Positions 8,070 to 17,055 of a DNA stretch of 64,000 nt are shown one piece after another; within the stretch, counting starts at the first letter, position 1, and the number at the start of each line of letters is the position of its first letter. Under the pieces are notes generated by a model. That model was not told where the DNA came from. It saw only the letters and a program-made list of their open reading frames with translations, and ran no database searches. Source of the stretch: an uncultured Hyphomicrobiales bacterium. Lineage in GTDB: Bacteria; Bacteroidota; Ignavibacteria; Kapaibacteriales; UBA2268. The stretch spans positions 7,219 through 71,218 of the forward strand of contig CAYYIP010000007.1 in the NCBI GenBank assembly GCA_964472015.1. The letters are read 5' to 3'. The translations under genes were made by a program, and so were the position numbers.

Positions 8070-9881
8070 ATGAAATTTTACAAATTAATAGCATTAATTA
8101 TTTGTTTTATAATATTATCAAGTAATATATCTGCTCAAGTTTATGAAGTTGAGCCTAATGTTGCTAATTGTGAATGTGGTTCTTTAACTATGACTGAAAA
8201 ACAAAAAATTATTAATTTTATTAATAAGATAAGAAAGCATCATAAACTTGGTGAAATTGTTTGGTCAAATAAGCATGATAAACGTGTTCAAAGTGCTGCA
8301 TTAAGTATGTTAGCAACAGGTATTATCTCTCATAGTCCAGTTTCTGGGAAATGCTCGAGTGCAGATTCTGATTCAGGACGTGCAAGTTCAAATTTATCTA
8401 TTAAGTCGTCTACTGTTAATGATGGTTTTGGTTCAATAGAACACATTATTGGTTGGTTAAAAGACAATCATAGTCAAACGCAGCCTCATTCGGTTGGTCA
8501 TAGACGATTAATTATTAATCCATTTTTATCAGCTACTTGTTTAGGTAAAGCTGAAGGCACACATCCTACTAATACTGGTTGGTATTTAGGAACAGCTGCT
8601 TTATGGGGTATAAATACTGATGTAATGGCGCCGTCTACTTGTGCAAATGATTTTGTTGCCTATCCTTATGAAAATTATCCTATTGATTGGGTAGATAAAA
8701 CATTCTATTTAAGTTTCTCACCATTAGCAGATCCATCTTGGTGGTGGGGTGGTAAGAACAAAGTTGCTTTTGATAATGCAGTTATTACTATGACTACTGA
8801 AAGTGGGCAAGCAGTCCAAGTATCAGATAAAGCATATGATTATGATGCATGGGGATGTTTTATAAATAATTTATCGTGGAAAGTAGTGGGTGGTCTAAAA
8901 GATGAAGTTAAGTATTTTGTTAAAATTAGTAATGTTATAGTAAATGGTTCTACACGTGAATATTCATATTGGTTTAAACTTACTAATCAAGATGACGATC
9001 CTGTAGCTGTAGCACCAGAGCTTATTTTGCCTGTGAATGGTGAACAAAATATTGATTTAACTAATCCTGTTTGTTTTAGATGGAAACGGGGACAAAATCT
9101 TACTAAGTATGAATTACAATTATCATATAGTAAAGATTTCACTTATATTTTTGATAATTTTGAGACTTCAGATACAAATATGTATGTTTCAACATTAGTT
9201 AGTGGACAACAATTCTATTGGCGAGTAGCAGGATTTCCTAGTGGTAGTGATACTCCACTGTATTCTAGTGTATGGAGTTTTACAACAAAAGCAGAAGTAA
9301 TAGATCCGCCTTTAATTTTAAATCCAAAAAATAATGCTGTAAATGTTTATCAACGAGAAGTATATAGGTGGACTAATATTAATTCTGCGATTCATTATAG
9401 GATTCAAATTTCTGAAAATGAAACAAATAAAATTGTTGTTGATGAAAGTGAAATTGTTGATACAACTTATTATTTAACAGCAGAACAAGCACTAGAAAAA
9501 AATACATCTTATAGTTGTCGTGTGAGTGCTAATTTATCTAATGGTACTGCAACTGCTTGGTCAGATATTGTGAAATTTACAACAGGAGATAATTATACAT
9601 CTATAAATGAACCGGAACAGCTTGTTTCTTCTATTATTTATCCAAATCCAACAAGAATGTCTTTTGCTGTATCAATGACTTTGGAATCTCCTGCAAATAA
9701 TTTGACTATTAGTATTACAGATGTTAACGGTAGGATTATCAAGAAAGAAAATTATGGTTATGTTACTGCTGGTAATCTAACTTATTATTTTAATACTGGT
9801 AAATTAAGTAATGGTATTTATAATATTATTTTAACTATTGATGGTAAATCAAAAGTTGAAAAATTAGTTATTTATAATTAA
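8070..9881 (+). CDS. Secreted CAP/SCP-like domain protein with Ig/FN3-like repeats and a T9SS C-terminal sorting domain
   Basis: Signal peptide; block GHRRLIINPFLSATCLG; C-terminus IYPNPTRMSFAVSM..LSNGIYNIILTIDGKSKVEKLVIYN (Por_Secre_tail). Confidence 0.65.
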   Translation: MKFYKLIALIICFIILSSNISAQVYEVEPNVANCECGSLTMTEKQKIINFINKIRKHHKLGEIVWSNKHDKRVQSAALSMLATGIISHSPVSGKCSSADSDSGRASSNLSIKSSTVNDGFGSIEHIIGWLKDNHSQTQPHSVGHRRLIINPFLSATCLGKAEGTHPTNTGWYLGTAALWGINTDVMAPSTCANDFVAYPYENYPIDWVDKTFYLSFSPLADPSWWWGGKNKVAFDNAVITMTTESGQAVQVSDKAYDYDAWGCFINNLSWKVVGGLKDEVKYFVKISNVIVNGSTREYSYWFKLTNQDDDPVAVAPELILPVNGEQNIDLTNPVCFRWKRGQNLTKYELQLSYSKDFTYIFDNFETSDTNMYVSTLVSGQQFYWRVAGFPSGSDTPLYSSVWSFTTKAEVIDPPLILNPKNNAVNVYQREVYRWTNINSAIHYRIQISENETNKIVVDESEIVDTTYYLTAEQALEKNTSYSCRVSANLSNGTATAWSDIVKFTTGDNYTSINEPEQLVSSIIYPNPTRMSFAVSMTLESPANNLTISITDVNGRIIKKENYGYVTAGNLTYYFNTGKLSNGIYNIILTIDGKSKVEKLVIYN

Positions 9882-9965: not shown

Positions 9966-10574
9966 TTGACGATGAATATTAATAATTTTGATTTATTAGT
10001 ACTTGGATTAGGAAATCCTGAAAGTAAATATTTAAATACGAGACATAATATAGGATGGAATTGTGTTATAAATTTAATAAAAAAATATGCTAAAGAAATT
10101 TACATAATAAAGAATATTGCAAAATATGCAACATTTAAAATAAAGAATAAAAGAATTCTTGCAGCAGTTCCTTTAACTTATATGAATTTAAGTGGAATAG
10201 CAGCAAAAAAATTATGTAGTAAATTTCAAATATCTTATGATAAGTTATTAGTTATTGTTGATGAATATAATTTCCCCGTTGGAAAAATTCATATAAAACA
10301 AGGTGGAAATTCAGGTGGTCATAATGGAATTGCTTCTATAATAGAAGAAATAGAAACAAATGAATTTTATAAATTAAGATGTGGAATAGGTCATAATTTT
10401 TCTTCGGGAGAATTAATAGATTATGTATTATCTGATTTTAATAAAGACGAAGAAAAAGAAGTTGATTTTATGATTGAAAAAGTTATAAAAGCAATAGAGT
10501 ATTTTGTTATGTTTGAAAGCGGGCGTGCTATGTCTGAGATTAATTCAGGGAATTTATTTATGCCTCAATTATAA
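9966..10574 (+). CDS. pth: Peptidyl-tRNA hydrolase
   Basis: LLVLGLGNPESKYLNTRHNIGW and LSDFNKDE blocks; about 200 aa. Confidence 0.85.
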   Translation: MTMNINNFDLLVLGLGNPESKYLNTRHNIGWNCVINLIKKYAKEIYIIKNIAKYATFKIKNKRILAAVPLTYMNLSGIAAKKLCSKFQISYDKLLVIVDEYNFPVGKIHIKQGGNSGGHNGIASIIEEIETNEFYKLRCGIGHNFSSGELIDYVLSDFNKDEEKEVDFMIEKVIKAIEYFVMFESGRAMSEINSGNLFMPQL

Positions 10575-10664
10575 TATAATAATTTAAAATAATTTTGTTT
10601 TTTTATAAAAAATTATTATTTTTGTATTCGTTATTTTAGTAATAAATGGAATTAAAGAGAAAAA

Positions 10665-10931
10665 ATGGCGCATCATGCATCGGCTCTAAAAAGAATTAGA
10701 CAGAGCAGAAAAAGGAAGCTTTATAATAGAGCAAATAAGAAATTATTAAGAATTGCAATTAAAAATGTTCGTGCAGCAAAAACTTACGAAGAAGGTATCG
10801 AATTATTAAATAAAATGTATAGTGTAGCAGATAGAGTAGCTGCAAAAGGTGTTATACATAAAAATAATGCTGCAAATAAAAAATCCTCTTTAAATGCGTT
10901 TGTAAAACGTTTAGAAAAAAAAGCAGAATAA
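10665..10931 (+). CDS. rpsT: 30S ribosomal protein S20
   Basis: MAHHASALKRIRQSRKRKLYNRANKK..; 88 aa, basic. Confidence 0.9.
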   Translation: MAHHASALKRIRQSRKRKLYNRANKKLLRIAIKNVRAAKTYEEGIELLNKMYSVADRVAAKGVIHKNNAANKKSSLNAFVKRLEKKAE

Positions 10932-10985
10932 TATATAATACATAAAAATAATCTAATAAATAAAAATATATATATTAGAATATAA

Positions 10986-11059
10986 GCACCCGTAGCTCAA
11001 TTGGATAGAGTATCTGACTACGGATCAGAAGGTTATGGGTTCGACTCCCTTCGGGTGTG
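10986..11059 (+). tRNA. tRNA-Arg, anticodon ACG
   Basis: Manual cloverleaf. Acceptor gcacccg/cgggtgt (G1-U72); D arm gctc-aattggata-gagt; anticodon stem tctga/tcaga with loop cTACGga; T arm atggg-ttcgact-ccctt; 74 nt; no encoded CCA. Confidence 0.85.
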
Positions 11060-11119
11060 CGTTTTTAATACTCTGTATAATATGTGATAATTTATATAAA
11101 ATAAAAGTATATTAAATAT

Positions 11120-11152
11120 AAAGAACTTGTTTCTATACAAGTTCTTTTTTGT
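11120..11152 (+). terminator. Rho-independent terminator downstream of tRNA-Arg(ACG)
   Basis: Stem aagaacttgt/acaagttctt (10 bp), loop ttctat, then a tttt-g-tttt run. Confidence 0.7.
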
Positions 11153-11228
11153 TTTATTTATTTATAAATTATGAATCGAGTTACAAAATATTATTTCTAT
11201 TGTTTAAATAAAATTATATAAGAATAGA

Positions 11229-11439
11229 AAAAATCTGCATAATTCATCTGTTCTAAAAAGAATTAGACAGAGTAGAAAAAGGAAGCTTTATAATAGAGCG
11301 AATAAGAGAAATTATTAAAAATTGCAATTAATTTATTAAAAATTACAATTAATTTATTAAGAATTACAATTAAATAGTATTCGTGCAGCAAATAGAGTAG
11401 CTGCAAAAGGTGTTATACATAAAAATAATCTAATATATA
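11229..11439 (+). pseudogene. Decayed tandem duplicate of rpsT
   Basis: Near-identical to the rpsT 5' region (ctaaaaagaattagacagag.agaaaaaggaagctttataatagagc.aataaga) but with no start codon, an inserted triplicated 21-bp motif (aattgcaattaatttattaaa..) and two internal deletions. The 3' deletion lies between direct repeats cataaaaataat. Confidence 0.8.
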
Positions 11440-11464
11440 TATATTAGATTATATGCATCCGTAG

Positions 11465-11538
11465 CTCAATTGGATAGAGCATCTGACTTCGGATCAGAGG
11501 GTTGGGGGTTCGAGCCCCTCCGGGTGTGCTATATTTTT
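11465..11538 (+). tRNA. tRNA-Arg, anticodon TCG (UCG)
   Basis: Paralogue of the 10986 tRNA: the same acceptor and D arm apart from 2-3 substitutions, anticodon loop cTTCGga, and a G-richer T arm ggggg-ttcgagc-ccctc; 74 nt. Confidence 0.8.
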
Positions 11539-11834
11539 AAAGAATATCAATATTTACTTATCATCAATCCTGTTCTATTTATCAAAAAACATATAAAAAT
11601 TAATTTTACTATATTTTTTTAATTTTTTTTTATTTTTATATTGTATATTTGTATTTGGATAAGAAATTATAAAAAAGAATTAAATTAAATAATTATACTA
11701 ATATGTTATCTTAAAATATTAAGAAGAATTAATGTATTAAAAGATATTAAAAGATATTAAAAGGAAGTTAAATTTTATTTTACATTAATATATTTTTATT
11801 ATTTTTAGCTTTGTTATAAATTTATTTAAGCATT

Positions 11835-12632
11835 ATGTTGTTATCGAAATTAGTTAAAATTATAATAAAAAATTCAATAATTTATTTTGTATTATTTTTA
11901 TATTTATTTTTATATGAAACTAATGCACAAGGTTTTCAATGGCAATATTCGGCACGTTTGCCTGTTGAAATTCCTAAATTTTATTATGGTATTAATTTTA
12001 ATTATGGTATTGTTAGTTCAAATGGTAGTTTTAATTTTTCAGAAGATGGTATAATATGCCCTAGTTTTAAGAATGGTACAGGAGGAGTTTTATCTTTTGG
12101 ATTAAATGGTGAATATTGGGATAATAATCAAATTGCTTATGTTTTTTCTGTTAATTATTTAAAATATAATATATTTTGTAGTTTTATTGACTATGTACCG
12201 ATATCTAATACTGTAACAGCATCGTATGAAGATAAACTAAAACTAGATTTTTCTAATATATTATTAAAAGCTGGATTAAAATATAGAATTTTAAATTCTC
12301 ATTTTCATATTGGAGCAGGAATTGATTTTGGCGCTGCTTTTAATAGTACTTTTGCAGTAACAGAAAAAATTATCGGGCCGGATAATATGCCACCTTTTTC
12401 TACTAATCCTCCTTCTTATGAACGTGATATTATAAATGGAAATTTCGATAAACTAAATATATTTGTTTTTTATCCTAGTATTAGTATTGGGTATGACTTG
12501 CAAATTGGTCGTGGGAAATATATAACACCAACTATGTCTTTATATATCCCTCTTTTTGATTTTACTAAGAATGATAATGTTAAAAATTTATTATTATTAT
12601 TTGGAATAAAATCAAGTTTTAATTTTTTATAA
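11835..12632 (+). CDS. Putative outer-membrane beta-barrel protein, possibly PorP/SprF-like
   Basis: Signal peptide ending ..ETNAQG; alternating amphipathic beta-strand-like segments; C-terminal ..SSFNFL (terminal aromatic). Family assignment is uncertain. Confidence 0.4.
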   Translation: MLLSKLVKIIIKNSIIYFVLFLYLFLYETNAQGFQWQYSARLPVEIPKFYYGINFNYGIVSSNGSFNFSEDGIICPSFKNGTGGVLSFGLNGEYWDNNQIAYVFSVNYLKYNIFCSFIDYVPISNTVTASYEDKLKLDFSNILLKAGLKYRILNSHFHIGAGIDFGAAFNSTFAVTEKIIGPDNMPPFSTNPPSYERDIINGNFDKLNIFVFYPSISIGYDLQIGRGKYITPTMSLYIPLFDFTKNDNVKNLLLLFGIKSSFNFL

Positions 12633-12672: not shown

Positions 12673-15600
12673 CTACCTCATAATAATTAAGTTTTTTGTT
12701 TTAATAATATTAGAGTTATTTATAATTTTTATATTATAACTTCCATTACTTAAATAACTAACAGGGAAATTTATTTCATTGTTACCTTTTGTTAATTGCA
12801 CGTCTTGTGTAAGTACTAATTTACCTATTGTATTAAATAATTTTATTGTTACTTTTGTACTAGTGTCAGAGATAAATTTTATTTTTAATTCGTCTTTGAA
12901 TATAATTTCATTAATAATAGTTTCTATGTGATAATTATTAATTTTATTATATACATTAGTGTTACCACAATATCCATATATATTAAATTTACCTTCTTCT
13001 TGCGTTATTTCGCATATTTTATCTGTTAATATATCAAAATTTTTAAAACGTATGGGTGTTTCGTTTGGATATGATAAAAGTGCTATTCCATGAATTTCTA
13101 AAAATTTATTTCTATTGTTTAATATCGTTTGTGCAATATTGCTATTTATACTACCTTTTATACCATCATTAATAGAAAAATTAAATTCTATTTCTTCTTT
13201 TATGTTATTATATATTATATATAATTTTTCAGGATAGAATAGTAAATTATCCATATCTATTGTGAAATCTATAGCTTGTGCATTTATCTCTGATGATACA
13301 GTATCAGTAATAAAAGCGCTAATTATTGCTGTGTTTCCTGGTATAGCTTTTGTTGTATCAAATTTTATTGGTATTATATATTTCTCTATAGGTACAGTTG
13401 CACTTAATGTAATGCTATCATTAACATTACAACTACGTTCAATATTTAATAATATTTTTCCATCATATATATTAGTTTCTGGGCCCGAGAATGAAATATA
13501 AATTTTTTCAGAACTATTTTTTTGTATTAATAAAGGTAGAATTACATTACTTGTAAAGTATATATTTGGTTGAATATTAAAAGTTGTTAAATATACATCA
13601 AATAAAGAAGAATTTGTTATTTCAACTTCCATTGTTTTTTGATGGTTTTTCCATACTTCACCGAAATTTATTATTTTATCAGATATAGTAATTTTTATTG
13701 AATCTGTTATTGAATATAATGTAACATCAAAACTTTTTGGACATACTTTATTTTTTAATATTAATTTAGTTGTATTATAATTTGGTAGATCTATAACTTT
13801 TGAAGGTGTAAAAATTATATCTAATAACTCTTTTGAAAGTGGTTTTATGATAATGGTATCTTTATTAAATTCATAATAATCAGGAATATCAGACGAGGCT
13901 ATAAATAAAGTGTCTTCTAGTGTTCCATTATTTATTATTTCTAAATGTTTTATTATAGCTGAATCACAGTTTTCTGATATATCAAAATTTATACTTTTTT
14001 CATTTATTATTGTATTACTTTTTCTAAATTCATTTTGAAAATAAATAGTATCAAATCTTGTTTCTTGTGTATTGTCATTAAGCATTTCAAATATAATAGA
14101 ATTATTAAAGTTTCCTTCTTTATCATCTATATTATTATATGAAACAATAATTCTTATTTTTTCTACTTGATTTATTTTTAGTGGTAAATTCGGGCACTCT
14201 AATATATTATATTCCGGTTCATTTTTTGTAAAGTTTAATGAAACAAATGTATAAGGCTGAGTATTAGTAACATAAATTGTATCATAAATTATACTATTTT
14301 CACAAGTTGTATAATGTGAAAATGTATGTACGGGATCACCTTTTATGTCTGTGTATTCCAAATTATTGTTAACAAAATCAATTAGAATTGGAATATTTAA
14401 AGTATCAGTGCATTCACTTTTTAAATAAACTAATATGTTTCCTTTATAAGTAAATTCAGTATCTGAAATAGCTTGAAAAGATAAAACTTTTTTACCACTT
14501 GGTGATAAATAAATTGGAAATGTATTTAATAATTCTATCTTAGCATTTTGTACATTTGGTTCTATTATAGCAGAATCTATTCTAATAGTTTGTACAGAAT
14601 TAGAAGTTAAAGTTATATTATATTCTTTAAGTATATTGATATTTAATAAATCATTTATTTCCTTAGGTTCAATAGTTACATCATTTGTTACTCCTTGTCC
14701 ATTTAATACTAATTTAAGAGTATCATTACAAGGTGTTAAAGTTACAATAATTGTATCTTTAAATAATCCTACTTTATATGGTGTAAAACTAATAATATAG
14801 TTTGATTTTTGAGCAGGATCAAGATATTTAGGTGCCTGTTTTACATCAAATCCTTTTAATACATCTTGTTCTATTATATTGGTTAAATCAAATTTTTGAT
14901 TACCTAAATTTTCTATTTCTTTCATTAATGTTATTGAATTTCCTACGCATATATATCCAAAATTAAATTCCAAGATATTATTATTTAATTTATTCTTTTT
15001 AAATATTGCATTAAATTTTATTCTTTTAGGTGCTTCCGAGGTTATTCTTTTTGTATCATTACTTGTTATTAATAATTCACCACTTAATGTATCTAAGTCA
15101 TTTGAATATAAATATAATAATAGTGTATCAGTTGACTTAGGTTTAATAGTAGTAGGTAATGATTTATTATTTGATAGTCCTAGTATTTTTACTTGTCTAT
15201 TTAAAGTTATTGGATTTAATTCATTACTATCTTGTATACTAACTTTGTATACTTCTAAATCATATGTTCCAATATTTTCAATAGGAATTTTTATTGTTGT
15301 ATCATTTTTACAAATAATGTTTATATTATATTCTTTTTTTACATTTATAATAGGTGAGACACCATTTACTTTTAATACAATTGTTTTTGTTTCATTACAG
15401 GGCGAGAATGTAAAAGTATAAGTTACATACGCTATTCCTGTATCACGAGGTGATATTTTAAATTCCATTTTATTGTTTGTATCATTTGGATGTACTGTAA
15501 ATGGAATTTTCGTACTAGCAGAAATATTAGTGAAATCAAGATTATTTGTACTACATTTATATCCTATTATAGTGTCACCAGATTCTGAAAACCATTTTAA

Positions 15601-17055
15601 TGTTCTATAACTATTTGTTTTTACAAACACATCTCCAAAATCAATTGTATCTTGATCTGCATATGTAGTAAATTCTTTTAATGCTCCTTTATAGTATATA
15701 GTATCTATATGTGTTATTTGTTCATCGTACGGATGTAATTTTATAATAATAGAAAAATAATGTTCTCCAACTTCTTTTGGAGCATATTTTACAATTATCT
15801 TTGTTTCATTACATGCAGGTACAGGAAAATATAAATAATCGGGCTTTATTATTGAGTAAAATTCATTATTTTCTAAAATTGATATATCTAATGTTGAACT
15901 TTCAAAATTCATATTTTTGACAGTTACTGTATCATATACTGTTGCAATAGTACAACTATCTCCAAAATCTACAGTATCTTTATTTACTAACATCTTAGAT
16001 GAATTATTGAGTTTATAAATATTATCACCTACAACCCATCCAAAATCTGGGCCAATAAAAAACATATCATCTAGATTATCGTAATCTTCTATGCCACAGT
16101 TTTTTAATTTCCAAGTTATACCGCTATCATTTGTATGATAAATTCCTTTATTTGTGCCACAAACCCAGCCTTCAGAACTACTAAGTAAGAAAGCACCATA
16201 CATAGGATAATGTGTAGTATAATTTCTCCAAGTAGGATATGGATGGTCTATATTAATAGAAAAACGCATACCACCATCTTGTGCTCCACCTGCACAATCG
16301 TTTCCTGAGTAAGGGACCAATATTGAATTATTATAATGAGTTATTTCTTCTTGCCATGATAAAATGTTGCTTGTTTGAGATAATATATTCCAAGTATCAC
16401 CAAAATTTGTTGTTTTCCAAATTAATCCACTACTTGATGCATAACCAATACCACTAGAATATACAATAATATCTGTTAGACCAGAATAATAATTTGTGCT
16501 TCCATTTAATGGAATAAATGATAATGAGTTTGGAGTCCAAGTTGCTCCGCCATCTGTTGTTCGCCATATAATTCTATTATTTTTTATAGAATGCGTATCT
16601 GCAGGTAAACAACCACCGCCTGCTACAAAGATTGTATCACGGTTTAGCATAAAACAACCCCAAATGTCTATATCGCCATTATAAACTAAATTATTTATAT
16701 AAGTTATTGAAGTCCAAGTTGCACCACCATCGGTTGATTTGAAAATACCATCGGGTCCTGAACAGAATCCATATTCTGTATCTATAAAATGTACACTTTC
16801 TAGGAACCAGCCGGGTAATGTACTAACATTCCAAGTTGCACCACCGTCAGTAGTTCTTGCTACACGTCCTAAATAATCACTATAACTTCGACCACATATC
16901 CATCCATTTGTAGGATTTAAAAAATAAACATCTAACCATTGTACTAAATTAGCAGACGATGGTAGATTTTTTACTTTTTCCCAATATTTAGCATTTAAAG
17001 GAATGTTGCAAATCCATATTATAAAAAGAATTATAAATAGTATTTGTTTTTTCAT
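12673..17055 (-). CDS. Giant (1460 aa) secreted BNR/Asp-box repeat beta-propeller protein with Ig-like repeats and a T9SS C-terminal sorting domain
   Basis: Signal peptide. Six SxDxGxTW-type motifs (TTDGGATW x3, STDGGATW, TTNFGDTW, TNDSGITW) near the N-terminus. C-terminus ..SNGSYNIKIINNSNIIKTKNLIIMR matches the T9SS CTD. Confidence 0.75.
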   Translation of the reverse strand: MKKQILFIILFIIWICNIPLNAKYWEKVKNLPSSANLVQWLDVYFLNPTNGWICGRSYSDYLGRVARTTDGGATWNVSTLPGWFLESVHFIDTEYGFCSGPDGIFKSTDGGATWTSITYINNLVYNGDIDIWGCFMLNRDTIFVAGGGCLPADTHSIKNNRIIWRTTDGGATWTPNSLSFIPLNGSTNYYSGLTDIIVYSSGIGYASSSGLIWKTTNFGDTWNILSQTSNILSWQEEITHYNNSILVPYSGNDCAGGAQDGGMRFSINIDHPYPTWRNYTTHYPMYGAFLLSSSEGWVCGTNKGIYHTNDSGITWKLKNCGIEDYDNLDDMFFIGPDFGWVVGDNIYKLNNSSKMLVNKDTVDFGDSCTIATVYDTVTVKNMNFESSTLDISILENNEFYSIIKPDYLYFPVPACNETKIIVKYAPKEVGEHYFSIIIKLHPYDEQITHIDTIYYKGALKEFTTYADQDTIDFGDVFVKTNSYRTLKWFSESGDTIIGYKCSTNNLDFTNISASTKIPFTVHPNDTNNKMEFKISPRDTGIAYVTYTFTFSPCNETKTIVLKVNGVSPIINVKKEYNINIICKNDTTIKIPIENIGTYDLEVYKVSIQDSNELNPITLNRQVKILGLSNNKSLPTTIKPKSTDTLLLYLYSNDLDTLSGELLITSNDTKRITSEAPKRIKFNAIFKKNKLNNNILEFNFGYICVGNSITLMKEIENLGNQKFDLTNIIEQDVLKGFDVKQAPKYLDPAQKSNYIISFTPYKVGLFKDTIIVTLTPCNDTLKLVLNGQGVTNDVTIEPKEINDLLNINILKEYNITLTSNSVQTIRIDSAIIEPNVQNAKIELLNTFPIYLSPSGKKVLSFQAISDTEFTYKGNILVYLKSECTDTLNIPILIDFVNNNLEYTDIKGDPVHTFSHYTTCENSIIYDTIYVTNTQPYTFVSLNFTKNEPEYNILECPNLPLKINQVEKIRIIVSYNNIDDKEGNFNNSIIFEMLNDNTQETRFDTIYFQNEFRKSNTIINEKSINFDISENCDSAIIKHLEIINNGTLEDTLFIASSDIPDYYEFNKDTIIIKPLSKELLDIIFTPSKVIDLPNYNTTKLILKNKVCPKSFDVTLYSITDSIKITISDKIINFGEVWKNHQKTMEVEITNSSLFDVYLTTFNIQPNIYFTSNVILPLLIQKNSSEKIYISFSGPETNIYDGKILLNIERSCNVNDSITLSATVPIEKYIIPIKFDTTKAIPGNTAIISAFITDTVSSEINAQAIDFTIDMDNLLFYPEKLYIIYNNIKEEIEFNFSINDGIKGSINSNIAQTILNNRNKFLEIHGIALLSYPNETPIRFKNFDILTDKICEITQEEGKFNIYGYCGNTNVYNKINNYHIETIINEIIFKDELKIKFISDTSTKVTIKLFNTIGKLVLTQDVQLTKGNNEINFPVSYLSNGSYNIKIINNSNIIKTKNLIIMR

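What the first reader, a model, noticed from the sequence alone, without database searches (positions are those of the whole stretch)
10650..11540. Tandem duplication of the rpsT + tRNA-Arg unit: the second rpsT copy is a decaying pseudogene and its tRNA has switched anticodon ACG to UCG
The 11229-11439 stretch reproduces the rpsT 5' region almost base-for-base. It has lost the start codon, gained a triplicated 21-bp insert and suffered two deletions. One deletion lies exactly between cataaaaataat direct repeats, the signature of slippage-mediated deletion. The downstream tRNAs (10986-11059 and 11465-11538) share acceptor and D arms but differ at anticodon position 34 (A to T) and in the T arm. 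This looks like neofunctionalisation of a duplicated tRNA-Arg(ACG) into tRNA-Arg(UCG), caught alongside the remnant of the co-duplicated protein gene. It is a neat snapshot of how a new isoacceptor arises.
Basis: seen in the sequence. Interest (0 to 1): 0.65.

Follow-up and report, generated by a model that had tools for sequence, protein, structure and literature searches.

The report
Duplicated rpsT remnant beside two tRNA-Arg genes
An uncultured low-GC bacterium carries a decayed second copy of its ribosomal protein S20 gene in front of a second arginine tRNA gene, but that tRNA looks older than the duplication, so it is an ordinary if instructive gene-family rearrangement and not a freshly born tRNA.

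Summary
rpsT (10665-10931) and tRNA-Arg(ACG) (10986-11060) are followed by a terminator. Independent metagenome assemblies show the same layout, so it is not an assembly artefact.

The rpsT pseudogene reading is supported. A sister species has the same locus with two intact rpsT genes and no second tRNA.

The claim that the UCG tRNA arose here by A34-to-T mutation of the duplicated ACG gene is only partly supported.
- **For it:** the 5' flank is clearly paralogous right up to the tRNA.
- **Against it, flank:** there is no 3'-flank or terminator homology.
- **Against it, differences:** the nine differences cluster in the tRNA core, strengthen pairing and run AT-to-GC. The pseudogene drifts the other way.
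- **Against it, ancestry:** the UCG tRNA keeps four ancestral states that the local ACG lineage had lost before the duplication. Parsimony costs 9 steps beside the neighbour and 4-5 on deep branches.

The best reading is a mosaic: a duplicated flank joined to an older UCG-type core by recombination or gene conversion (about 0.5). An in-situ switch stays possible (about 0.33). ACG-to-UCG gain after duplication is already published. Interest is low to moderate.

The parts
9966..10574 (+). pth (peptidyl-tRNA hydrolase), the conserved upstream neighbour of rpsT
   Evidence: A 202-aa ORF. The same gene on the matching contigs carries PF01195. The sister species has the same synteny.
10590..10624 (+). 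Putative promoter region P1 of rpsT, with TAnnTTTG motifs at 10590-10597 and 10617-10624
   Evidence: Motif hits are, but the motif is not enriched in the window (123 found against 128 expected), so this is weak evidence. The region is orthologous to the sister's rpsT1 upstream region (score 70 against 31.5 +/- 5.4). Promoter function is inferred from the known Bacteroidetes -7 consensus (my own knowledge).
10665..10931 (+). Intact rpsT (ribosomal protein bS20, 88 aa)
   Evidence: ORF. PF01649 is on record for the identical protein in 14 contigs. Homologues are listed.
10932..10985 (+). rpsT-tRNA spacer, 54 nt. It holds a second copy of the 15-mer ATACATAAAAATAAT (10938-10952) and an imperfect AU hairpin.
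   Evidence: hairpin -5.5 kcal/mol, z = -3.7. Relatives where both genes are seen have 7-17 nt here (L091 17, L107 13, L037 15, L097 and L100 7), except L096 with 137 nt.
10986..11060 (+). tRNA-Arg(ACG), the rpsT-linked lineage. It has G1.U72, G10.U25 and a U50.U64 mismatch.
   Evidence: It is identical in L107 and differs by 1 nt in the sister species. rpsT followed by tRNA-Arg(ACG) is conserved in L014, L037, L091, L094, L096, L097-L102, L104, L105 and L107.
11120..11153 (+). Intrinsic terminator of the rpsT-tRNA(ACG) unit
   Evidence: It is the only terminator-like site in 10400-11900. Folding gives -12.2 kcal/mol, z = -5.8. It is orthologous to the hairpin after tRNA1 in the sister species (36 against 15.1 +/- 2.5). 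Single-copy relatives also have a terminator directly after the tRNA.
11154..11227 (+). Region upstream of the remnant, possibly a decayed copy of the rpsT promoter
   Evidence: It is not significantly similar to P1 or to the sister's rpsT2 upstream region. It has no TAnnTTTG motif. The sister's rpsT2 upstream region is a recognisable paralogue of P1 (44 against 27.5 +/- 5.0, 2 of 500 shuffles).
11228..11429 (+). rpsT pseudogene remnant. ATG has become ATC, there is a 1-nt indel, two extra 21-bp units, a 51-bp internal deletion, and truncation after the codons for VIHKNN by an 84-bp deletion.
   Evidence: Its differences from copy 1 are biased GC-to-AT, 10 against 3.
11312..11373 (+). 21-bp tandem array (three units) derived from rpsT codons; its copy number varies between strains
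   Evidence: TRF result. L007 has one unit fewer. L010 lacks 42 nt here, though that contig's end is unreliable.
11425..11454 (+). Pre-tRNA spacer of copy 2, with a perfect AU palindrome (11425-11452)
   Evidence: Inverted repeat I18. The hairpin folds at -9.8 kcal/mol, z = -3.8. It is 38/39 identical to the copy-1 spacer apart from an 8-nt indel.
11455..11529 (+). tRNA-Arg(UCG). The cloverleaf is intact and more stable than tRNA1. The first 25 nt and the last 9 nt match tRNA1 except for U4, while the core (linear 26-66) differs at 8 of 41 positions.
   Evidence: -26.3 against -21.9 kcal/mol. It is invariant in L001-L003 and L007. The core clustering gives p = 0.002.
11530..11834 (+). AT-rich 3' flank with no homology to the 3' flank of tRNA1 and no terminator. 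It contains a 10-bp VNTR at 11716-11763.
   Evidence: (score 30 against a shuffle mean of 36.3).
11835..12632 (+). Downstream 265-aa gene with no Pfam hit, a synteny anchor shared with the sister species
   Evidence: In more distant relatives its homologue follows a T9SS-tail protein and no tRNA precedes it.

Best explanation
The locus is a two-unit array in an uncultured, 27%-GC bacterium of the FCB group (Ignavibacteria/Kapabacteria-like).

**Unit 1** is the native operon: promoter, rpsT, tRNA-Arg(ACG), terminator. This order is conserved through the clade.

**Unit 2** began as a duplicate of rpsT. The duplication is shared with, or paralleled in, the sister species, where both rpsT copies are intact and under purifying selection. 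In the window's species the second rpsT has become a pseudogene. It lost its start codon, underwent slippage expansion of a 21-bp unit, and suffered two deletions between short direct repeats.

**The tRNA at the end of unit 2** is a functional tRNA-Arg(UCG). It supplies CGG (and CGA) decoding, which the inosine-bearing ACG tRNA cannot give. I infer that this gene is a mosaic.
- Its 5' flank and first ~25 nt are paralogous to unit 1.
- Its core (D-stem closing pair, anticodon, position 44, T arm) and its 3' flank descend from a UCG-type tRNA older than the rpsT duplication.
- The two parts were joined by homologous recombination or gene conversion through the ~25-nt 5' stretch that all NCG arginine tRNAs share.

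**Shown:** the anatomy, paralogy of the 5' flank, absence of 3' homology, pseudogene status, structural integrity of tRNA2, population polymorphism, and the state of the relatives.

**Inferred:** the recombinational origin of the core, expression of tRNA2, and its decoding role.
For: - **Anatomy and significance of the repeats:**
- **Real in nature:** independent assemblies show the same layout.
- **Native unit:** rpsT, tRNA(ACG), terminator in relatives.
- **Sister species:** rpsT1, tRNA(ACG), terminator, then an intact rpsT2 and no tRNA. The two copies differ at 9 synonymous and 1 non-synonymous codon.
- **3' side:** no 3'-flank homology and no second terminator.
- **Clustering:** mismatches cluster in the tRNA core, 8/41 against 4/120 in the rest of the tRNA plus the 86 nt upstream (p = 0.002).
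- **Direction of change:** opposite to the pseudogene (p = 0.017). Every stem change keeps or improves pairing.
- **Age of the ACG sequence:** the neighbour's ACG sequence was already fixed before the duplication. It is identical in L107 and 1 nt off in the sister.
- **Ancestral states:** tRNA2 carries C25, G49, G50 and C65, as seen in deeper ACG relatives and in most UCG tRNAs. Parsimony gives +9 steps beside the neighbour and +4 to +5 on deep branches.
- **A common body type:** UCG tRNAs with the same D and anticodon arms, mostly with the same T arm, occur in contigs of 26-71% GC. ACG/UCG pairs that share acceptor stems but differ in T arms occur in other genomes, for example L212.
- **Need for a CGG decoder:** CGG codons are present but rare, 9 of 14,229. 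I34 cannot read CGG, and low-GC bacteria tend to use UCG rather than CCG for it (PMC4041420).
Against: - **No source gene seen.** No pre-existing tRNA-Arg(UCG) was found in any relative. The rpsT loci and gene-265 loci of relatives contain none. Whole genomes could not be scanned.
- **Adjacency or ectopic conversion is needed.** The mosaic model needs either a resident UCG gene right downstream of the array in the ancestor, or an ectopic conversion. In the metagenome sample only about 4 of ~119 UCG loci had an ACG gene nearby. An ectopic conversion would have only ~10 nt of 3' homology to work with.
- **The sister species lacks the tRNA.** It shows no remnant of it either.
- **Weak signal outside the pattern.** Outside the 28 positions fixed by my search pattern, tRNA2 is about equally distant from its neighbour (7/47), relatives' ACG tRNAs (6/47) and unrelated UCG tRNAs (5-7/47).
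- **Selection could mimic reversal.** Stem-strengthening changes could in principle be driven by selection after an anticodon switch.
- **Published precedent for the rival.** ACG-to-UCG switches after duplication have been inferred before, supported by upstream-flank similarity just as seen here (PMC4041420).
- **No promoter found for tRNA2**.
Confidence: 0.5

Rival explanations
1. One reading: in-situ birth. The whole unit rpsT-spacer-tRNA(ACG) was duplicated, and the second tRNA acquired A34-to-U. It then changed at eight more positions (4, 25, 44, 49, 50, 59, 60, 65) under selection for a stable UCG decoder. Meanwhile rpsT2 decayed and the second terminator was deleted. The sister species lost the second tRNA.
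For: - The 5' flank is homologous right up to the tRNA.
- The first 25 and last 9 nt are identical to tRNA1 except for C4U.
- The local acceptor stem is shared, including A3-U70 and G1.U72.
- Published cases of ACG-to-UCG gain by duplication or HGT plus anticodon mutation exist, and UCG replaces CCG at low GC (PMC4041420).
- L130 shows an ACG/UCG pair in one contig differing at only 3 positions, including 34 and 44. Switching with tuning of position 44 therefore does occur.
- A44 to G/C accompanies U34 in several pairs.
- No resident UCG gene was seen in relatives.
Against: - It needs nine substitutions from a sequence that stayed unchanged, or changed by 1 nt, over a longer time span.
- Four of the nine are exact reversals to ancestral states, giving +9 against +4 to +5 parsimony steps.
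- Six of nine run against the genome's AT mutation bias, which is visible in the adjacent pseudogene.
- The weak stems of tRNA1 have been tolerated in three lineages, so strong selection to repair them only in the copy is ad hoc.
- It needs a separate, precise loss of the second terminator at the tRNA's 3' edge.
Confidence: 0.33
2. Independent placement. tRNA-Arg(UCG) is simply an old resident gene downstream of the rpsT operon. An rpsT copy happened to land in front of it. The spacer similarity is secondary homogenisation by gene conversion between the two tRNA 5' regions, and no ACG copy was ever duplicated.
For: - The sister's duplicate comprises promoter and rpsT only, with no tRNA.
- The spacer is the most similar segment, 38/39, which fits recent conversion.
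- Strain L008 has a copy-1 spacer lacking 10 nt, closer to the copy-2 form, so the spacers are still changing.
- Clusters with ACG and UCG side by side exist elsewhere: L118 and L212.
Against: - No relative shows a UCG gene downstream of rpsT-tRNA(ACG).
- The copy-1 spacer keeps 8 extra nucleotides that extend its similarity to rpsT coding sequence. It is therefore not simply copied from today's copy 2.
- This model overlaps heavily with the best explanation and differs only in whether an ACG copy ever existed at that spot.
Confidence: 0.12
3. Assembly artefact: the tandem structure arose from mis-joined reads of two strains or from repeat mis-assembly.
For: One contig (L234) is a collapsed form that joins rpsT copy 1 to the copy-2 remnant and tRNA(UCG). 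Assemblers, or cells, therefore do recombine these repeats.
Against: Eight contigs from separate samples and assemblers carry the same two-unit order at 99.2-99.3% identity. The copies differ by about 10% and by indels, which repeat collapse or strain mixing would not produce. The sister species has an analogous two-unit locus on a 98.7-kb contig.
Confidence: 0.02

Closest known systems
Gain of an auxiliary tRNA by gene duplication followed by anticodon mutation (Wald & Margalit 2014, Nucleic Acids Res, PMC4041420, scenario iii). The paper infers ACG-Arg to TCG-Arg twice.
   Same: Both involve the same isoacceptor pair (ACG and UCG) and a low-GC setting in which UCG rather than CCG covers CGG. 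In both, flank similarity lies mainly upstream of the new gene, and the amino-acid identity is unchanged.
   Different: Here the new tRNA is not the closest relative of its neighbour. Its core carries ancestral states that the neighbour's lineage had already lost, the 3' flank is unrelated, and a co-duplicated protein-gene remnant is preserved. The data fit a recombinant gene at least as well as a point-mutated duplicate.
Birth of a tRNA gene copy by large tandem duplications in Pseudomonas fluorescens SBW25 (Ayan et al. 2020, eLife, PMC7661048)
   Same: A tandem duplication carries a tRNA gene together with neighbouring genes, as a route to change the tRNA gene set.
   Different: Those duplications are 45-290 kb, arose in the laboratory, keep the anticodon and raise dosage. 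This one is about 0.5 kb, natural and old enough to have decayed, and its two tRNAs have different anticodons.
Anticodon switching between arginine isoacceptors in experimental evolution of yeast (Yona et al. 2013, eLife, PMC3868979)
   Same: It is the same principle. Position 34 is not an ArgRS identity element, so a change there re-targets an arginine tRNA without mischarging.
   Different: That case is a eukaryote, the change is UCU to CCU, a single substitution was observed directly, and the bodies stay identical. Here there are nine differences and the direction is uncertain.
Concerted evolution and gene conversion between bacterial paralogues such as tRNA, rRNA and tuf genes (general knowledge, not tested against a specific paper here)
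   Same: Identity is patchy. Flanks and gene ends are 96-100% identical while a functionally distinct core stays diverged. The sister's two rpsT copies are identical over their central ~160 nt.
   Different: No donor locus has been identified. The 3' homology (~10 nt) is short for classical RecA-dependent conversion.

Membership tests
tRNA (Rfam RF00005) | Cloverleaf scoring above the curated gathering score | tested here: met
   Both genes score 61.8 and 63.1 bits against a gathering score of 29. ARAGORN draws cloverleaves for both.
tRNA-Arg (ArgRS substrate) | Identity elements A20, C35 and G36 or U36. Position 34 is not an identity element (established for E. coli ArgRS; my own knowledge). 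| tested here: met
   Both genes have the D loop AAUUGGAUA with A20 and the anticodons ACG or UCG. Charging itself was not tested.
TadA substrate (A34-to-I34 tRNA-Arg) | A34 in the loop context U33-A34-C35-G36 | tested here: met
   tRNA1 has the loop CUACGGA. tRNA2 has U34 and cannot be a substrate. No tadA gene was looked for.
Ribosomal protein bS20 (PF01649) | An intact ORF matching the family profile | tested here: met
   Copy 1 (10665-10931) encodes 88 aa, and the identical protein has PF01649 on record.
Ribosomal protein bS20 (PF01649), second copy | An intact ORF matching the family profile | tested here: not met
   In 11228-11429 the start codon ATG is ATC, there is a 1-nt indel, a 42-nt insertion, and 51-bp and 84-bp deletions. 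No + strand ORF of 25 aa or more remains. This copy is a pseudogene.
Tandem segmental duplication of the whole rpsT-tRNA-terminator unit | Homology across the whole unit, including both flanks of the tRNA and the terminator | tested here: not met
   Homology covers the rpsT 5' part, a mid part, the spacer and the tRNA ends. No promoter homology is detectable (27 against 26.9), no 3'-flank homology (30 against 36.3), and there is no second terminator.
Isoacceptor born by duplication plus anticodon mutation | Flanking sequence paralogous to that of the donor gene | tested here: inconclusive
   The upstream flank is paralogous (54 against 24.6 +/- 3.9, 0 of 500 shuffles). The downstream flank is not.
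Isoacceptor born by duplication plus anticodon mutation | The new tRNA is most similar to, and most parsimoniously derived from, the donor paralogue in the same genome | tested here: not met
   It is 88% identical to the neighbour against 89-93% to unrelated UCG tRNAs, though the latter figure is biased by the search pattern. Outside the pattern the counts are 7/47 against 5-7/47. Parsimony gives +9 steps beside the neighbour and +4 to +5 on deep branches.
Isoacceptor born by duplication plus anticodon mutation | The isoacceptor is absent from close relatives that lack the duplication | not testable with these tools
   Only the rpsT and gene-265 neighbourhoods of relatives could be fetched, and none has a UCG gene.

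The most novel reading that the evidence does not exclude
The UCG gene really was born here from the duplicated ACG gene. Within the short life of the pseudogene it was then rebuilt by selection at eight further positions, against the genome's AT mutation bias. That rebuilding gave it the body most bacterial UCG arginine tRNAs share: the 10-25 pair, the 26-44 hinge and the T stem. This would be a natural example of a tRNA body being re-tuned to a new wobble base, with the co-duplicated pseudogene serving as an internal clock.
Probability: 0.3. Interest if true: 0.5.

Novelty: new member of a known kind. Interest (0 to 1): 0.3.

Why it matters
The locus is a well-preserved natural record of how a bacterial tRNA gene set and a ribosomal-protein gene change together. 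It shows one duplication with two outcomes in sister species: both rpsT copies kept in one, a pseudogene plus a UCG tRNA in the other.

It is also a caution. Flank homology plus a differing anticodon is not enough to call an anticodon switch. NCG arginine tRNAs are so conserved that recombination between isoacceptors can imitate one.

If the in-situ reading were right, the case would add dated evidence that the tRNA body co-adapts to the wobble base. Either way the processes involved are already described: duplication, slippage deletion, anticodon switching, gene conversion. No new system or mechanism is implied.

Tried and rejected
1. **Assembly artefact.** Rejected, because eight independent contigs agree.
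2. **A resident UCG gene upstream of the 265-aa gene in relatives.** Its homologues in P0105, P0108 and P0109 contexts follow a T9SS-tail protein with no tRNA, so this was uninformative.
3. **A tRNA remnant after rpsT2 in the sister species.** None was found.
4. **A second terminator or 3'-flank homology after tRNA2.** None was found.
5. **A promoter for tRNA2.** There is no TAnnTTTG motif between 10625 and 11643. Sigma-70-like hits are no more frequent than in shuffles, and two of them are created by the 21-bp repeats, which is probably chance.
6. **Viral-contig scans for UCG tRNAs with the local acceptor stem.** The specific pattern gave zero hits. The broader pattern returned 12 contigs, at least ten of them carrying phage-like tRNA arrays unrelated to this clade.
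7. **Donor of the tRNA2 T arm among the other tRNAs of the window (Glu, Gln).** No match.
8. **My first impression that tRNA2 clearly belongs to an ancient pan-bacterial UCG lineage.** I downgraded this once I allowed for the 28 positions fixed by the search pattern and read that UCG is repeatedly gained in low-GC bacteria.
9. **A coding or antisense function for the remnant.** The only ORF is a 47-aa antisense one with a counterpart in copy 1, taken as chance.
Full report
**What is there**

The window has 27.2% G+C. Its S20 protein is closest to proteins from MAGs labelled Bacteroidetes, Ignavibacteria, Kapabacteria or FCB group.

On the + strand the order is as follows:
- pth, 9966-10574;
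- rpsT, 10665-10931, 88 aa, with PF01649 on record for the identical protein;
- a 54-nt spacer;
- tRNA-Arg(ACG), 10986-11060;
- the only terminator-like hairpin of the region, 11120-11147 plus a T run;
- about 75 nt of AT-rich DNA;
- a non-coding rpsT remnant, 11228-11429;
- a 25-nt spacer;
- tRNA-Arg(UCG), 11455-11529;
- 305 nt of AT-rich DNA;
- a 265-aa gene, 11835-12632.

ARAGORN and Rfam agree on both tRNAs.

**Checking the observation**

The remnant matches rpsT in four ungapped blocks of 85-96% identity.
- ATG has become ATC.
- A 21-bp piece of coding sequence is present three times (TRF).
- 51 bp are missing between the imperfect repeats GTGCAGCAAA and GTGTAGCAGA.
- 84 bp are missing between two exact copies of ATACATAAAAATAAT (10854-10868 and 10938-10952).
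- The pre-tRNA spacers are 38/39 identical apart from an 8-nt indel. That is far above chance: 54 against 24.6 +/- 3.9, with 0 of 500 shuffles reaching it.

Eight contigs assembled independently from other samples carry the same two-unit layout at 99.2-99.3% identity. The number of 21-bp units differs between strains. The structure is real, and the remnant behaves as neutral DNA.

**Relatives**

rpsT followed by tRNA-Arg(ACG) is conserved across the clade. It appears in L014, L037, L091, L094, L096, L097-L102, L104, L105 and L107.
- The spacer is 7-17 nt in five of these lineages and 137 nt in L096.
- In L091, L102, L104 and L107 a terminator hairpin lies directly behind the tRNA.
- The unit is single-copy wherever the downstream sequence was long enough to judge.

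The exception is the sister species, whose S20 is 86% identical (L091 on a 98.7-kb contig, and L092).
- It has the same neighbours as the window.
- Its order is rpsT1, tRNA-Arg(ACG), an orthologous terminator, a recognisable copy of the promoter region, and a second intact rpsT. No tRNA follows it, and no remnant of one.
- Its two rpsT copies differ at 9 synonymous codons and 1 non-synonymous codon, and are identical over the central ~160 nt.
- Both copies are therefore kept by selection, and probably homogenised by conversion.

Paralogues within each species are more alike than orthologues between species: 96% between the sister's two copies, about 90% between the window's two copies where they can be aligned, and 87% between the species. 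That fits either one old duplication with concerted evolution or two parallel duplications. The shared order of tRNA, terminator, second rpsT favours the former.

**Where the second tRNA came from**

The two tRNAs differ at nine positions: 4, 25, 34, 44, 49, 50, 59, 60 and 65 in canonical numbering. Four lines of evidence argue against a simple A34-to-T change in a fresh duplicate.

1. *The ACG sequence was already fixed.* The neighbour's ACG sequence is identical in L107, whose S20 is 76% identical, and differs by 1 nt in the sister species. That was therefore the sequence at the time of any duplication limited to these two species.
   - tRNA2 carries C25, G49, G50 and C65. These are the states seen in deeper ACG relatives and in most UCG tRNAs.
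   - The neighbour, the sister and L107 share T25, A49, T50 and T65.
   - On an S20 tree, attaching tRNA2 next to its neighbour costs 9 steps. Attaching it on deep branches costs 4-5.
2. *The changes run against the mutation bias.* Six of the nine differences are AT-to-GC and one is GC-to-AT. The adjacent pseudogene shows 10 GC-to-AT against 3 AT-to-GC (p = 0.017).
   - All stem changes keep or improve pairing.
   - The fold is more stable, -26.3 against -21.9 kcal/mol.
3. *Identity is patchy.* It is 96-97% in the 86 nt upstream, 24/25 in the first 25 nt of the tRNA, 33/41 in the core and 9/9 at the 3' end. Beyond the 3' end there is no detectable homology and no second terminator.
4. *The sister species has the rpsT duplicate without the tRNA.*

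**Limits of that argument**

A metagenome scan with the D-loop-to-anticodon-arm pattern returned 120 stretches, and every tRNA-Arg matching the pattern had a UCG anticodon. They came from contigs of 26-71% GC, and most had the tRNA2-type T arm. This first looked like an ancient UCG lineage. Three things weaken that reading.
- The pattern fixed 28 of the 75 positions. Outside it, tRNA2 differs from its neighbour at 7/47, from relatives' ACG tRNAs at 6/47, and from the best UCG hits at 5-7/47.
- The literature shows that I34 cannot read CGG, that low-GC bacteria tend to use UCG rather than CCG for it, that UCG is gained repeatedly, and that ACG-to-UCG anticodon mutation after duplication or transfer has been inferred twice (PMC4041420).
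- One contig (L130) holds an ACG/UCG pair differing at only three positions, including 34 and 44. Position 44 tends to be A with ACG and G or C with UCG.

No UCG gene was seen in any relative's fetched locus, and whole genomes could not be scanned. An in-situ switch therefore remains a serious rival.

**Best reading**

The rpsT duplication and its decay are established. The UCG tRNA is intact and invariant in the population, and it is very probably functional. I read it as a mosaic.
- The duplicated 5' flank and the first ~25 nt are joined to a core and 3' flank that predate the duplication.
- The join was made through the 5' stretch that all NCG arginine tRNAs share.
- One recombination of this kind would explain three things at once: the older-looking core, the missing terminator and the absent 3' homology.
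- Its cost is that a UCG gene must have lain nearby, or have acted as an ectopic donor, and none has been observed.

**How the locus probably works (inferred)**

- rpsT and tRNA(ACG) are likely co-transcribed from a promoter at about 10590-10624 and terminated at 11120-11147.
- tRNA(ACG), after A34-to-I editing, reads CGU, CGC and CGA.
- tRNA(UCG) covers CGG, and CGA as well. Both codons are rare here: CGG is 9 and CGA 64 of 14,229 codons in 28 long ORFs.
- How tRNA2 is transcribed is unknown. No promoter-like motif stands out between the terminator and the tRNA.

**Comparison with what is known, and novelty**

Every process involved is already documented: tandem duplication of tRNA-bearing segments (PMC7661048), anticodon switching (PMC4041420, PMC3868979), slippage deletions and gene conversion. 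This is a new and unusually legible example, not a new kind of thing. Its main value is as a caution against reading flank homology plus a changed anticodon as proof of a switch.

Noticed in passing
L091 3001-3264 and 3517-3780 (also L092): The sister species keeps two intact tandem rpsT genes of 87 aa each. They differ at 9 synonymous and 1 non-synonymous codon and are identical over the central ~160 nt. Duplicated bS20 genes under purifying selection are unusual.
   Followed up: partly
L234 274-575 (JGI 3300010365, Ga0116251_10172638): This contig joins rpsT copy 1 to the copy-2 remnant inside the 47-nt repeat. The result is a 78-aa truncated S20 followed directly by tRNA-Arg(UCG), with no ACG gene. 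It is either an assembly collapse or a real deletion allele in the population.
   Followed up: partly
window 11425-11452 and 10948-10983: An AU-only hairpin lies immediately 5' of each tRNA. It is a perfect 12-bp stem before tRNA2 (-9.8 kcal/mol, z = -3.8) and an imperfect one before tRNA1. It is absent from relatives whose spacers are 7-17 nt. Possibly a processing or mRNA 3'-end element.
   Followed up: partly
window 10938-10968 vs 10854-10884: The copy-1 spacer contains a ~31-nt degenerate duplicate of rpsT codons 64-74, made of the 15-mer followed by CT..AAATAAAAAT. No explanation so far accounts for how coding sequence came to lie between rpsT and its tRNA in the intact unit.
   Followed up: no
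window 11716-11763; L234 780-840: A 10-bp repeat (AGATATTAAA-like) varies in copy number between strains. L234 has about three more units than the window.
   Followed up: no
window 10986-11060; L091 3282-3356; L107 843-917: The rpsT-linked tRNA-Arg(ACG) carries a U50.U64 mismatch, a G10.U25 pair and a G1.U72 pair. It has nevertheless been conserved unchanged, or with 1 nt changed, across three lineages. In the sister species position 64 is C, giving U50.C64.
   Followed up: partly
L130, L117, L212, window (tRNA position 44): In ACG/UCG pairs from the same contig, position 44 is A in the ACG tRNA and G or C in the UCG tRNA. L118 is an exception. This may be tuning of the 26-44 hinge to the wobble base.
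   Followed up: partly
L037 3276-3350 and L014 3309-3383: Two MAG contigs of relatives end at, or within 30 nt after, the tRNA-Arg(ACG) gene. This hints at repeated sequence there that breaks assemblies.
   Followed up: no
L236-L247 (IMG/VR contigs): Most of these are phage-like contigs with arrays of 8-27 tRNA genes, some also with a tmRNA (tag GNYTLALAA). Their tRNA-Arg(UCG) has the same D arm and anticodon arm as the window's gene.
   Followed up: no
window 8070-9881 and 12673-17055: These are large secreted proteins. Their counterparts on matching contigs carry Por_Secre_tail (T9SS) domains, in line with an FCB-group origin. In more distant relatives the 265-aa gene's homologue sits directly behind such a protein on the same strand.
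   Followed up: partly
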